Of a stretch of 64,000 bases of DNA, positions 41,901 through 44,900 are shown piece by piece. The stretch comes from Escherichia coli (lineage in GTDB: Bacteria; Pseudomonadota; Gammaproteobacteria; Enterobacterales; Enterobacteriaceae), in the NCBI RefSeq assembly GCF_965641715.1, contig NZ_OZ282453.1; one strand, written 5' to 3'. The position numbers are program-made. Position 1 is the stretch's first letter. Each line of letters begins with the position of its first letter.

Positions 41901-44900
41901 GTTAGCACTGGAATCGTCAAAGCTGTCTTTCAGACTGTCTTTCACTTTCACTTCGTTTTCAGTATGGCGCTGGGCAGCAACCAGACGTTCGGTCAGGCTG
42001 GTGTACAGGCCGCTGTCGAGGAAGTTGGTCAGCGAAATATGCTGTGCCTGCGGAACCTGGCGCATAGCGCGTTCGGTCAGGTCACGGTGAGTGATGACGA
42101 GGTCCACATCTGGCGGCAGGTTGTTGATCGCGCTGTTAGTGACCGAAATCTGCGACAGACCTGCATCCTGAATTTTCTTACGCAGCACGCCTGCGCCCAT
42201 CGCACTTGAACCCATACCGGCGTCACAGGCAACGATGATTTTACGTACGTGGCTCAGGTCGTTAGTCACATCGCCCGCAGACAGCGGAGATGCACCTTTA
42301 GACTCAGCTTTCATGTCCTGCATACGACGAGTTGCTGCTTCAATATCATCTTCTTCTTTCACTTTGCTGGTTTTCAGCAAAATAGCAGAGACAACAAAGG
42401 AGACAGCCATCGCCGCACACACACCCGCGATGTTAGCGAAATAAGCACCTTTTGGTGTCATCGCCAGTACAGCAAGGATAGAACCCGGAGATGCCGGAGA
42501 AACCAGACCACCGCCCAGGATAGTCAGCGTGAACACGCCAGTCATACCGCCGAGGATAACGGCCAGGATCAGACGCGGATTCATCAACACATACGGGAAG
42601 TAAATTTCGTGGATACCACCCAGGAAGTGGATAATTGCCGCACCGCCCGCAGACTGTTTAGCGCTACCACGACCAAAGAACATGTACGCCAGCAGCACGC
42701 CCATACCCGGACCTGGGTTAGCTTCAATCAGGAAGAATATGGATTTACCCAGTTCATGGGACTGCTGAATACCCAGCGGCGAGAAGATACCGTGGTTAAT
42801 GGCGTTGTTGAGGAACAGGATTTTCGCCGGTTCAACAAAGATAGACGCCAGCGGCAGCATGTCATGGACAACCATGAAGTTAACGCCCGCAGCCAGCATT
42901 TTGGACAGGGCTTCAACAATCGGGCCAATGCCGAGAAATGCCAGAATGGCGAGGATCATCCCGATGATGCCTGCGGAGAAGTTATTCACCAGCATCTCAA
43001 AACCGGATTTGATCTTACCGTCTACCCAGCGGTCGAAGTGCTTAATGCACCAGCCGCCCAGCGGACCTGCAATCATAGAACCGAGGAACATCGGCATGTC
43101 TGCGCCGACGATAACGCCCATGGTGGTGATGGCACCGACTACGCCGCCACGTTCGCCGCCTACCAGCTTACCACCGGTATAACCGATCAGCAGCGGCAGG
43201 AGATAAGTGATCATCGGCCCGACCAGCTTCGCCAGCGTCTCGTTCGGTAACCACCCTGTTGGAATAAATAACGCGGTGATGATACCCCACGCGATAAACG
43301 CGCCGATATTTGGCATCACCATGTTGCTGAGGAAACGACCAAAGCTTTGCACTTTGATCTTAATATCGGATGACATAAAAACACCCCTTCTTATGTTTGC
43401 TGTCGCGCAGGCTGGAAGCCCGAGGTTTTTTGTTAATGTGGCGGCAGAGGTAGCCGGACCTTGTAGATACTGCGAAATCTGGCACTGAATCGGTTAACTG
43501 TCCAGTCGACGGCCTTTTGTGTGATATCAATCACATAAATATAGGGGGTAGAGAGGTAATTGACGTGACGTTCATCACAAAACGCTTGTGTAAAAAAGCA
43601 ACAAGGCGGCGATTTTCGCTAAAAATGGCATTTAAATGTGAGTAGTGTCACATTTTTGTTTTGATGGTTTGTTGAATCTTTGTGATCTGAATCACAAGAT
43701 ATTTTCTTACGGCGTTCACCTGATGTGATCTACAGCATGTTATGCCTTCGTCATACAATCGTTATGTAACTAAGCAACTCATCACCTCTAAAAATTATTC
43801 TTTGGTGTTATGGCGAGAATCGCGAACCCGGATTATTGTCAAAATATCAGCCTGACTCCCTTCTGGCTGCCAGCCAAAAAACAACACTGATAAACGTGAA
43901 TCCGAGGCAAATATGTTTCTAAACTATTTCGCGTTGGGAGTGCTGATCTTCGTCTTTCTGGTGATTTTTTATGGAATCATCGCGATACATGACATCCCTT
44001 ATTTGATTGCCAAAAAGCGCAACCATCCCCATGCCGACGCTATTCATACGGCGGGCTGGGTGAGCCTGTTTACTCTGCATGTTATCTGGCCGTTTCTGTG
44101 GATCTGGGCGACGCTCTATCAACCGGAGCGCGGCTGGGGCATGCAGTCACATGTTGCGTCGCAGGAGAAAGTGACTGACCCGGAAATCGCCGCACTTTCT
44201 GACCGAATTTCCCGGCTGGAGCACCAACTCGCCGCCGAGAAAAAGACTGACTATTCCACGTTCCCGGAGATCTAATTATGGATCTATTGATTGTTTTAAC
44301 TTACGTGGCGCTGGCGTGGGCGGTCTTTAAAATCTTTCGTATTCCGGTGAATCAATGGACGCTGGCGACGGCGGCGCTGGGAGGCGTGTTTCTGGTGAGT
44401 GGTTTGATTTTGTTGATGAACTACAACCACCCTTACACTTTTACCGCGCAAAAGGCTGTGATAGCGATCCCCATCACGCCACAGGTGACGGGAATTGTTA
44501 CTGAAGTCACTGACAAGAATAATCAGCTTATTCAAAAGGGCGAGGTGCTTTTTAAGCTCGACCCGGTTCGTTACCAGGCGCGAGTTGACAGACTTCAGGC
44601 TGACCTGATGACGGCGACGCATAATATAAAGACGCTGCGCGCGCAGCTCACTGAAGCGCAGGCCAACACCACCCAGGTTTCAGCGGAGCGCGACCGTCTG
44701 TTTAAAAATTATCAACGTTATCTGAAAGGCAGCCAGGCGGCGGTGAATCCGTTCTCGGAACGTGACATCGACGATGCGCGGCAAAATTTCCTCGCGCAGG
44801 ATGCGCTGGTGAAAGGCTCGGTGGCGGAGCAGGCGCAGATCCAGAGCCAGCTCGACAGTATGGTCAACGGCGAGCAATCGCAGATTGTGAGCTTAAGAGC

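What the first reader, a model, noticed from the sequence alone, without database searches (positions are those of the whole stretch)
43520..43696. Four CRP-type palindromes in the mtlA promoter region
Four TGTGA-N6-TCACA sites with exact spacing occur within 180 bp upstream of mtlA. That is an unusually dense array, consistent with the strongly catabolite-dependent mtl promoter known from K-12.
Basis: partly seen in the sequence, partly recalled or inferred. Interest (0 to 1): 0.25.

Follow-up and report, generated by a model that had tools for sequence, protein, structure and literature searches.

The report
Known CRP site array of mtlA
The flagged palindromes are the well-studied cluster of cAMP-receptor-protein (CRP) binding sites that switch on the E. 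coli mannitol operon and also serve as the landing pad for its repressor MtlR, so the finding is real but already known.

Summary
The window is E. coli chromosome. mtlA lies on the minus strand (41463-43376). The flagged stretch sits in the 536-bp mtlA-yibI spacer, which differs from K-12 MG1655 at two bases, both outside the array.

Three sites are exact TGTGA-N6-TCACA (43520-35, 43637-52, 43681-96; 0.06 expected by chance in 64 kb). The fourth (43564-79) is CGTGA-N6-TCACA, 9 of 10.

The centre-to-centre spacings are 44, 73, 44 and 43 bp. With a start site at 43469, the centres fall at -58.5, -102.5, -175.5, -219.5 and -262.5. These are exactly the published CRP5 to CRP1 positions (Ramseier & Saier 1995; Lee et al., NAR 2026).

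An approximate CRP matrix ranks the five sites 1, 2, 3, 5 and 8 of 63,979 window positions. In 51 species the four strong sites keep the same geometry, and 40 are exactly 44-73-44. Core pentamers are 94% conserved against 36% for the central six bases.

The published mechanism is that CRP activates the promoter, and MtlR docks on CRP pairs 43-46 bp apart to repress it.

Verdict: genuine, ordinary, already known. The only small additions are the strict conservation of the 73-bp gap and a conserved block inside it.

The parts
43517..43538 (-). CRP5, the promoter-proximal CRP site. Core 43520-43535 reads TGTGATATCAATCACA (10 of 10); centre 43527.5, which is -58.5.
   Evidence: Exact pattern match. 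PWM rank 2 of 63,979. Core pentamers 0.91 conserved against 0.40 for the central N6 in 34 Enterobacterales. Published centre -58.5.
43561..43582 (-). CRP4. Core 43564-43579 reads CGTGACGTTCATCACA (9 of 10); centre 43571.5, which is -102.5.
   Evidence: One-mismatch match. PWM rank 5. Core 0.91 against N6 0.35. Lies 44 bp from CRP5, as published.
43634..43655 (-). CRP3. Core 43637-43652 reads TGTGAGTAGTGTCACA (10 of 10), and the 22-mer is AAATGTGAGTAGTGTCACATTT. Centre 43644.5, which is -175.5.
   Evidence: Exact match. PWM rank 1. Core 0.95 against N6 0.23. Lies 73 bp from CRP4.
43678..43699 (-). CRP2. Core 43681-43696 reads TGTGATCTGAATCACA (10 of 10); centre 43688.5, which is -219.5.
   Evidence: Exact match. 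PWM rank 3. Core 0.97 against N6 0.45. Lies 44 bp from CRP3.
43721..43742 (-). Core 43724-43739 reads TGTGATCTACAGCATG (7 of 10); centre 43731.5, which is -262.5.
   Evidence: PWM rank 8. Core only 0.49 conserved. Found only in Enterobacteriaceae proper. Published as 7 of 10 and dispensable.
43499..43504 (-). -35 hexamer TGGACA of the mtlA promoter (inferred).
   Evidence: Read from the sequence. It lies 17 nt upstream of the -10 hexamer. T, C and A are conserved in the alignment. It fits the published start site.
43476..43484 (-). Extended -10 element TGcCAGATT (TG at 43484-43483, hexamer CAGATT at 43481-43476).
   Evidence: TG, A(-11) and T(-7) are about 100% conserved. The element (GTGccAGAtT, or GTGnTAGAGT in other genera) sits at a fixed distance from the CRP5 centre across the 51 loci listed, by visual inspection.
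43469..43469 (-). mtlA transcription start, +/-1-2 nt. It is inferred by fitting the five published site centres, and it lies 7 nt downstream of the -10.
   Evidence: One start-site value reproduces -58.5, -102.5, -175.5, -219.5 and -262.5. The original S1 mapping is cited in PMC13421365.
43377..43468 (-). mtlA 5' untranslated leader, about 93 nt counting the start-site base.
   Evidence: Follows from the start site and the ATG. The distance from the CRP5 centre to the ATG varies from 115 to 190 bp between species, so the leader tolerates insertions and deletions. No Rfam family matches it.
41463..43376 (-). mtlA, mannitol PTS enzyme IICBA (637 aa).
   Evidence: ORF. Pfam PTS_EIIC, PTS_IIB and PTS_EIIA_2. 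RefSeq annotation.
40085..41233 (-). mtlD, mannitol-1-phosphate 5-dehydrogenase (382 aa).
   Evidence: Intact ORF in the window. Pfam Mannitol_dh and Mannitol_dh_C on the homologous locus. Annotation.
39498..40085 (-). mtlR, the mannitol operon repressor (195 aa). This is the protein reported to dock on paired CRP dimers.
   Evidence: Intact ORF. Pfam PF05068 MtlR, E = 2e-66, on the homologous locus. Annotation.
43588..43603 (-). Conserved block TGT-nn-T(6-7)-ACAC inside the 73-bp CRP3-CRP4 gap. Its role is unknown.
   Evidence: Base counts in 40 loci: G 33/40, T-run 26-33/40, A-C-A-C 24-31/40, all at fixed positions. Conservation 0.6-0.9.
43485..43498 (.). Candidate Cra (FruR) box CTGAATCGGTTAAC in the spacer between -35 and -10. 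This is a resemblance recalled from memory only.
   Evidence: Sequence read. The literature states that a Cra site exists in this control region, but its coordinates were not checked. Conservation is moderate, 0.4-0.7.

Best explanation
The stretch is the upstream activating and operator region of the E. coli mtlADR (mannitol) operon.

Activation (published). When glucose is absent and cAMP is high, CRP dimers occupy CRP2-CRP5. CRP5, at -58.5, is thought to recruit RNA polymerase to a weak extended -10 promoter (TGGACA-17-CAGATT). The far-upstream dimers are also required, and their role is thought to be architectural.

Repression (published). Adjacent sites are 43-44 bp apart centre to centre (pairs CRP4/5, CRP2/3 and CRP1/2). 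This lets the MtlR dimer, which has no DNA-binding domain, bridge two DNA-bound CRP dimers and repress transcription.

Induction and glucose preference (published). [quoted passage not shown] Shown here: the sites, their statistics, their identity with K-12, the promoter elements, and the conservation of cores and geometry.

Taken from the literature: CRP binding, the need for each site, and MtlR docking and sequestration.

Inferred here: CRP3 and CRP4 must lie on the same face of the helix.
For: - Exact and near-exact motif matches far above chance. PWM ranks 1, 2, 3, 5 and 8 of 63,979.
- The window spacer has the same length as K-12 MG1655 and differs at 2 bases, both outside the array. The locus is present in 5404 of 5426 complete E. 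coli genomes.
- Spacings 44/73/44/43 equal the published centre distances, and one start site reproduces all five published centres.
- In 34 Enterobacterales, core pentamers are 0.94 conserved, against 0.36 for the central N6 and 0.48 for the spacers (Mann-Whitney p = 7e-17). There are no insertion columns inside the array.
- 51 loci carry the four-site array and 40 are exactly 44-73-44, while the distance from the CRP5 centre to the ATG varies from 115 to 190 bp.
- None of nine loci scanned from outside the Gammaproteobacteria (Firmicutes, a Fusobacteriales MAG, an alphaproteobacterium) carries the array. Seven have no site at or above the threshold and two have a single isolated one.
- In three divergent E. 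coli strains, no substitution falls in a CRP2-5 core. The GTDB E. coli representative (L003) has one, in the CRP3 core.
- The array is present in 39 loci that have no yibI in the 1.5-kb upstream flank held, so it belongs to mtlA.
- mtlA, mtlD and mtlR are intact.
- Literature: five CRP sites, EMSA and chromosomal site mutants, and spacing-dependent MtlR docking (PMC13421365). Genomic SELEX gave 38 clones (PMC3105977). V. cholerae also has five empirically verified CRP sites at mtlA (PMC6597380).
Against: Nothing found here contradicts this explanation. The caveats are as follows.

- No binding or expression data exist for this particular strain.
- The weight matrix is my own approximation of the CRP logo and not a curated matrix.
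- The generic sigma-70 scan did not pick up the promoter, because CAGATT matches TATAAT at only 3 of 6 positions. The -10 assignment therefore rests on conservation and on the published start site.
- CRP5 at -58.5 is 3 bp off the canonical Class I position of -61.5.
- The original footprinting paper (Ramseier & Saier 1995) and the supplement of the 2026 paper could not be read.
- How the far-upstream sites activate is still unresolved in the literature.
Confidence: 0.94

Rival explanations
1. The array mainly, or also, controls the divergent yibIH operon. CRP1 and CRP2 would then act as activator sites for a yibI promoter.
For: The sites lie in a divergent spacer, and CRP1 is centred about 181 bp from the yibI ATG. 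Shimada et al. note that both promoters of a divergent pair are often CRP-controlled.
Against: - Only 12 of 51 array-bearing loci have yibI in the 1.5-kb upstream flank held, yet the array and its fixed distance to the mtlA -10 persist.
- No sigma-70-like promoter for yibI was found on the plus strand between 43740 and 43912.
- The sequence between CRP1 and yibI is poorly conserved.
- An additional effect on yibI in E. coli is not excluded.
Confidence: 0.08
2. The palindromes are chance matches, or remnants of a repeated or mobile element, with no regulatory role.
For: TGTGA and TCACA are short words. The spacer is AT-rich and contains several short inverted repeats.
Against: - Three exact sites against 0.06 expected.
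- The repeats found are confined to the CRP motifs themselves, with no longer duplicated unit.
- The locus is single-copy in E. coli genomes (median 1 place per genome).
- Selection acts on the half-sites and not on the central 6 bp.
- The geometry is conserved across three orders.
- Binding and mutant data are published.
Confidence: 0.01
3. The array is a CytR-type anti-activation module, in which a DNA-binding repressor sits between tandem CRP dimers, as at deoP2.
For: Two CytR-like octamers can be read: GTTGCTTT (minus strand, 43603-43596; 7 of 8) and GTTGAATC (plus strand, 43671-43678; 6 of 8). They form part of inverted repeat I6. The consensus GTTGCATT is recalled from memory.
Against: - The octamers are about 67 bp apart and flank CRP3 instead of lying between a CRP pair.
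- The site spacings are 43-44 and 73 bp, not the 52-53 bp of CytR promoters (established knowledge).
- Only TGT within the first octamer is conserved between species.
- The repressor of this operon is MtlR acting through protein-protein contact with CRP.
Confidence: 0.02

Closest known systems
E. coli K-12 mtlADR control region: five cAMP-CRP sites (Ramseier & Saier 1995), plus the MtlR-CRP-DNA repression and EII-Mtl sequestration model (Lee et al., NAR 2026, PMC13421365)
   Same: The sequence across the whole array and promoter is identical. The site centres, spacings and downstream operon are the same.
   Different: Nothing of substance differs. This strain has two substitutions near yibI, at 43876 and 43910.
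V. cholerae mtlA promoter, with five empirically verified CRP sites (Zhou et al. 2013, cited in PMC6597380)
   Same: It is a multi-site CRP array upstream of mtlA. The Vibrionaceae loci examined here (which do not include V. cholerae itself) show 44-73-43 spacing of four sites.
   Different: V. cholerae adds an antisense sRNA, MtlS, and its MtlR is reported not to be sequestered by EII-Mtl. Site quality is lower in several vibrios.
malK (malEp-malKp) multi-CRP nucleoprotein region
   Same: It has several CRP sites in one divergent control region and is a Class III promoter.
   Different: Its adjacent CRP sites are 34 bp apart. MtlR does not bind unless that spacing is lengthened to 44 bp.
CytR-CRP repression complexes (deoP2, cdd, udp)
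   Same: A repressor exploits tandem DNA-bound CRP dimers by protein-protein contact.
   Different: CytR also binds DNA itself and needs CRP sites about 52-53 bp apart. MtlR has no DNA-binding domain and needs 43-46 bp.
pap operon far-upstream CRP site (-215)
   Same: Activation comes from far upstream and depends on helical phase. Lee et al. cite it as a precedent.
   Different: It has a single distal site working with Lrp and PapI, not a four-site array.

Membership tests
Canonical cAMP-CRP binding site (22-bp, TGTGA-N6-TCACA) | Dyad of TGTGA and TCACA pentamers separated by exactly 6 bp | tested here: met
   10/10, 9/10, 10/10, 10/10 and 7/10 core matches, all with N6 spacing.
Canonical cAMP-CRP binding site (22-bp, TGTGA-N6-TCACA) | Weight-matrix score clearly above the genomic background | tested here: met
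   Ranks 1, 2, 3, 5 and 8 of 63,979 positions; the 99.99th percentile is 11.9 bits and the sites score 11.6-19.7. The matrix is my own approximation.
Canonical cAMP-CRP binding site (22-bp, TGTGA-N6-TCACA) | Selection on the contacted pentamers but not on the central 6 bp | tested here: met
   0.94 against 0.36 identity across 34 Enterobacterales for CRP2-5. Not met for CRP1, at 0.49. Within-species substitutions avoid the cores.
Canonical cAMP-CRP binding site (22-bp, TGTGA-N6-TCACA) | Physical binding of cAMP-CRP | not testable with these tools
   Published for the identical K-12 sequence: EMSA and Genomic SELEX.
E. coli mtlADR control region (Class III CRP-dependent promoter) | Orthologous position and sequence: the yibI-mtlA spacer of E. 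coli | tested here: met
   536 bp against 536 bp with 2 differences from MG1655. RefSeq annotation of the flanking genes.
E. coli mtlADR control region (Class III CRP-dependent promoter) | Five sites centred at -262.5, -219.5, -175.5, -102.5 and -58.5 | tested here: met
   Centres 43731.5, 43688.5, 43644.5, 43571.5 and 43527.5 with the start site at 43469.
E. coli mtlADR control region (Class III CRP-dependent promoter) | Sigma-70 promoter at the matching distance downstream | tested here: met
   TGGACA-17-TGcCAGATT. The extended -10 is conserved and sits at a fixed distance from CRP5 across the 51 loci listed. The generic scan missed it.
MtlR-CRP-DNA repression module (Lee et al. 2026) | Adjacent CRP sites 43-46 bp apart, centre to centre | tested here: met
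   44 bp (CRP5-4), 44 bp (CRP3-2) and 43 bp (CRP2-1). CRP4-3 is 73 bp, which is reported as non-permissive.
MtlR-CRP-DNA repression module (Lee et al. 2026) | MtlR (PF05068) encoded in the operon | tested here: met
   Intact 195-aa ORF at 39498-40085. Pfam MtlR, E = 2e-66, on the homologous locus.
MtlR-CRP-DNA repression module (Lee et al. 2026) | Formation of the ternary MtlR-CRP-DNA complex, and its release by dephosphorylated EII-Mtl | not testable with these tools
   Literature only.
CytR-CRP anti-activation promoters | Tandem CRP sites about 52-53 bp apart with CytR octamer repeats between them | tested here: not met
   The spacings are 43, 44 and 73 bp. The octamer-like words are about 67 bp apart, flank CRP3 and are not conserved.

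The most novel reading that the evidence does not exclude
Published work stresses pairwise 43-46 bp spacing. This reading goes further: the whole four-site array would be one rigid nucleoprotein machine.

- The long CRP3-CRP4 distance is as strictly conserved as the short ones. It is 73 bp in 46 of 51 loci spanning Enterobacterales, Aeromonadales and Vibrionales.
- Its only variants are 72 or 74 bp, 63 bp (Edwardsiella) and possibly 84 bp (Aliagarivorans). These correspond to about 6, 7 or 8 whole helical turns.
- The gap also carries AT content phased at about 10.5 bp.
- It contains a fixed-position block, TGT-nn-T7-ACAC, that is not a CRP site.

Together these would mean that CRP3 and CRP4 must face the same side of a bent or wrapped DNA segment. 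An extra contact would then be built into the gap: an RNA polymerase alpha-CTD, Fis, or an unknown protein. That could explain why the far-upstream sites are indispensable for activation.
Probability: 0.3. Interest if true: 0.35.

Novelty: already known. Interest (0 to 1): 0.1.

Why it matters
As a discovery it does not matter. The five CRP sites of the mtl control region have been known since 1995, and their role as a docking platform for MtlR was published in 2026.

It does serve as a positive control for the scan. A reader working from raw sequence picked out exactly the four sites that mutational analysis shows to be functional.

The comparative data gathered here add a modest point. The full 44-73-44 geometry, including the long gap and a conserved block within it, is under strong constraint across several orders of Gammaproteobacteria. 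This bears on the still-open question of how the far-upstream CRP dimers activate the promoter.

Tried and rejected
- **Original footprinting paper.** Ramseier & Saier 1995 is not held in the library.
- **Supplement of Lee et al. 2026.** No supplementary files are held, so primer and probe sequences could not be matched to the window.
- **Generic promoter and terminator scan.** It gave only chance-level hits (1 against 1.5 expected for promoters, 1 against 0.5 for terminators) and missed the real promoter, whose -10 is weak.
- **Rfam scan of the whole window.** Nothing was found in the mtlA leader or spacer, only a JUMPstart element far away.
- **Duplication origin of the two CRP pairs.** Repeats are limited to the CRP motifs. 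One 32-nt two-copy family at 72% identity (43571-43602 and 43747-43778) is probably chance.
- **CytR-type module.** Rejected on spacing and on lack of conservation.
- **yibI as the controlled gene.** Rejected as the main role, because the array travels with mtlA where yibI is absent.
- **A sixth CRP site in the 73-bp gap.** The conserved block is TGT-N9-ACA, one base short of CRP spacing, and aligns with the CRP core at only 6 of 10 by eye, so it was not counted as a site.
- **Curated CRP matrix.** None was available. I used my own approximation of the logo, together with core-match counts.
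Full report
**Observation**

The window is E. coli chromosome. A 701-bp piece around the finding matches thousands of complete E. 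coli genomes at 95-100% identity, and the flanking genes are annotated as mtlA and yibI. mtlA lies on the minus strand at 41463-43376 and yibI on the plus strand at 43913-44275. The flagged stretch 43520-43696 therefore sits in the 536-bp divergent spacer, upstream of mtlA.

An exact search for TGTGA-N6-TCACA gives three matches in the whole 64-kb window. All three lie in the flagged stretch, at 43520-35, 43637-52 and 43681-96. The chance expectation is 0.06, and none of 100 shuffles reached three. Allowing one mismatch adds a single further site in the entire window, 43564-79, which reads CGTGA-CGTTCA-TCACA.

One of them matches 9 of 10 positions instead of being perfect.

With an approximate palindromic CRP matrix (my own estimate of the logo), the five sites rank 1, 2, 3, 5 and 8 among 63,979 window positions. 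Only three other positions in 64 kb reach the score of the weakest. By inference from those numbers, the background density predicts about 0.01 such sites in a 230-bp span, and five are seen.

**Identity with the known region**

The spacer has the same length as in K-12 MG1655 and differs at two bases, 43876 and 43910. Both are near yibI and outside the array and the promoter. K-12 results therefore transfer directly.

The centres of the five sites are 43527.5, 43571.5, 43644.5, 43688.5 and 43731.5, which gives spacings of 44, 73, 44 and 43 bp. Lee et al. (NAR 2026, PMC13421365) give the five CRP sites of the mtl operator as centred at -58.5, -102.5, -175.5, -219.5 and -262.5, with centre distances of 44, 73, 44 and 43 bp. 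They describe CRP1 as having 7 of the 10 consensus bases and CRP2 and CRP3 as having all 10. A single choice of start site, 43469 on the minus strand, reproduces all five published positions.

**Promoter**

Upstream of 43469 the minus strand reads TGGACA (43504-43499), then 17 nt, then CAGATT (43481-43476), with TG at 43484-83. This is a weak -10 with an extended -10 TG.

The generic consensus scan missed it. In an alignment of 34 Enterobacterales, however, the TG, the A at -11 and the T at -7 are essentially invariant. Across the 51 loci listed, the element (GTGccAGAtT or GTGnTAGAGT) sits at a constant distance from the CRP5 centre, judged by visual inspection. No Rfam family matches the roughly 93-nt leader.

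**Independent comparative evidence**

MtlA-encoding loci from 80 species genomes were fetched, and the 500-700 bp upstream of mtlA was scanned. Fifty-one loci carry four strong sites in the same arrangement, and 40 of them are exactly 44-73-44. The variants are:

| Spacing | Taxa |
|---|---|
| 44-73-43 | Vibrio |
| 45-73-44 | Aeromonas |
| 45-73-43 | Photobacterium pectinilyticum |
| 45-74-43 | Tolumonas |
| 44-72-44 | Providencia, Budvicia |
| 44-72-43 | Photorhabdus |
| 44-63-44 | Edwardsiella |

By contrast, the distance from the CRP5 centre to the ATG ranges from 115 to 190 bp, so insertions and deletions are tolerated next door but not inside the array.

Nine loci from outside the Gammaproteobacteria were scanned (Firmicutes, a Fusobacteriales MAG and an alphaproteobacterium). 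None carries the array. Seven have no site at or above the threshold and two have one isolated site.

In the alignment, the pentamers of CRP2-5 are 0.94 identical to E. coli. The central six bases are 0.36 identical and the surrounding spacers 0.48 (p = 7e-17), and there are no insertion columns within 43520-43696. This is the expected signature of CRP contacts. CRP1 is not conserved (0.49), which fits the report that it is dispensable.

Within E. coli, three of the more divergent strains place all their substitutions in the central N6 or in the spacers, and none in a CRP2-5 core. The GTDB E. coli representative (L003) has one substitution in the CRP3 core.

Only 12 of the 51 array-bearing loci have yibI in the 1.5-kb upstream flank held, so the array belongs to mtlA. 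Repeat analysis finds no duplicated unit beyond the CRP motifs themselves.

**Mechanism (from the literature, on the identical sequence)**

- The promoter is CRP-dependent. Chromosomal replacement of CRP2, CRP4 or CRP5 abolishes growth on mannitol for 20 h. Replacement of CRP3 slows growth slightly, and replacement of CRP1 has no effect.
- MtlR has no DNA-binding domain. It supershifts CRP-DNA complexes only when two adjacent sites are occupied and are 43-46 bp apart. It does not bind the 73-bp CRP3/4 pair unless that distance is shortened to 44 bp, and it does not bind the malK pair (34 bp) unless that is lengthened to 44 bp.
- Dephosphorylated EII-Mtl sequesters MtlR at the membrane, which induces the operon. 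[quoted passage not shown]
- Fis and Cra sites are also reported in this region, but deleting fis or cra has only minor effects.
- Genomic SELEX independently recovered the yibI-mtlA spacer as the second most abundant class of cAMP-CRP-selected clones, 38 clones.
- V. cholerae mtlA likewise has five empirically verified CRP sites.
- mtlA, mtlD and mtlR are intact in the window, so the whole circuit is present.

**What is new here, if anything**

The main text of the 2026 paper stresses the 43-44 bp pairs. The data here show that the 73-bp distance is just as constrained. The departures from it are 72 and 74 bp, 63 bp and possibly 84 bp (Aliagarivorans, whose architecture differs). These are close to 6, 7 and 8 helical turns. 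The 63-bp and 84-bp cases rest on one species each.

The gap also shows AT content phased at about 10.5 bp. It carries a fixed-position conserved block, TGT-nn-T7-ACAC (43603-43588), that is not a CRP site. Two further short conserved blocks flank CRP2: AACAAA at 43673-68 and AAAATA at 43705-00.

These observations fit the phase-dependent looping idea raised in the paper's discussion, but they remain inference.

**Verdict**

The feature is an already known, well-characterised regulatory region, and its interest is low.

Noticed in passing
window 43588-43603 (minus strand): A conserved block, TGT-nn-T(6-7)-ACAC, lies in the 73-bp gap between CRP3 and CRP4. It sits at a fixed position about 23 bp upstream of the CRP4 centre in Enterobacteriaceae and is recognisable in Yersinia, Vibrio and Aeromonas. 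It is not a CRP site, because the dyad spacing is one base short. It might be a Fis-like G-N13-C site or an alpha-CTD contact, but neither was tested.
   Followed up: partly
window 43572-43644 (CRP3-CRP4 gap) and the related loci: The long inter-site distance is 73 bp in 46 of 51 loci. The other values are 72 or 74 bp, 63 bp (Edwardsiella hoshinae, L047) and 84 bp (Aliagarivorans, L058), which are about whole numbers of helical turns. AT content in the gap peaks at a 10.5-bp period.
   Followed up: partly
window 43668-43673 and 43700-43705: Two short blocks, AACAAA and AAAATA on the minus strand, are 80-100% conserved across 34 Enterobacterales. One lies just downstream and one just upstream of CRP2, outside the 16-bp core.
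   Followed up: no
window 43485-43498: CTGAATCGGTTAAC, in the spacer between -35 and -10, resembles a Cra (FruR) operator. The consensus is recalled from memory. The literature says a Cra site exists in this region, but its coordinates were not verified. Conservation is only moderate.
   Followed up: no
window 41234-41462: The 229-bp mtlA-mtlD intergenic region contains GC-rich, REP-like palindromes, for example GCCTGATGCGCTTCGCTTATCAGGCCTACA and TGTAGGCCGGATAAGGCGTTTACGCCGCCTCCGGC.
   Followed up: no
window 4426-4464 (+): A JUMPstart RNA element (Rfam RF01707, 55 bits) is the only Rfam gathering-level hit in the window.
   Followed up: no
window 9768-9789, 59952-59973, 45409-45430: These are the only other positions in the window scoring at least 12 bits with the approximate CRP matrix. 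The third lies at the yibH/yibF junction. They could be single CRP sites or chance matches.
   Followed up: no
window 43571-43602 and 43747-43778: A 32-nt direct repeat at 72% identity, spaced 176 bp apart, links the CRP4 half-site plus the gap block to a stretch upstream of CRP1. It is probably chance. Pseudocitrobacter (L082) does have an extra site 44 bp upstream of CRP1.
   Followed up: no
L061 (Brenneria roseae): This MtlA relative (60% identity) has no CRP-like sites upstream. It may be a paralogous mannitol-family PTS gene and not the mtlA orthologue.
   Followed up: no
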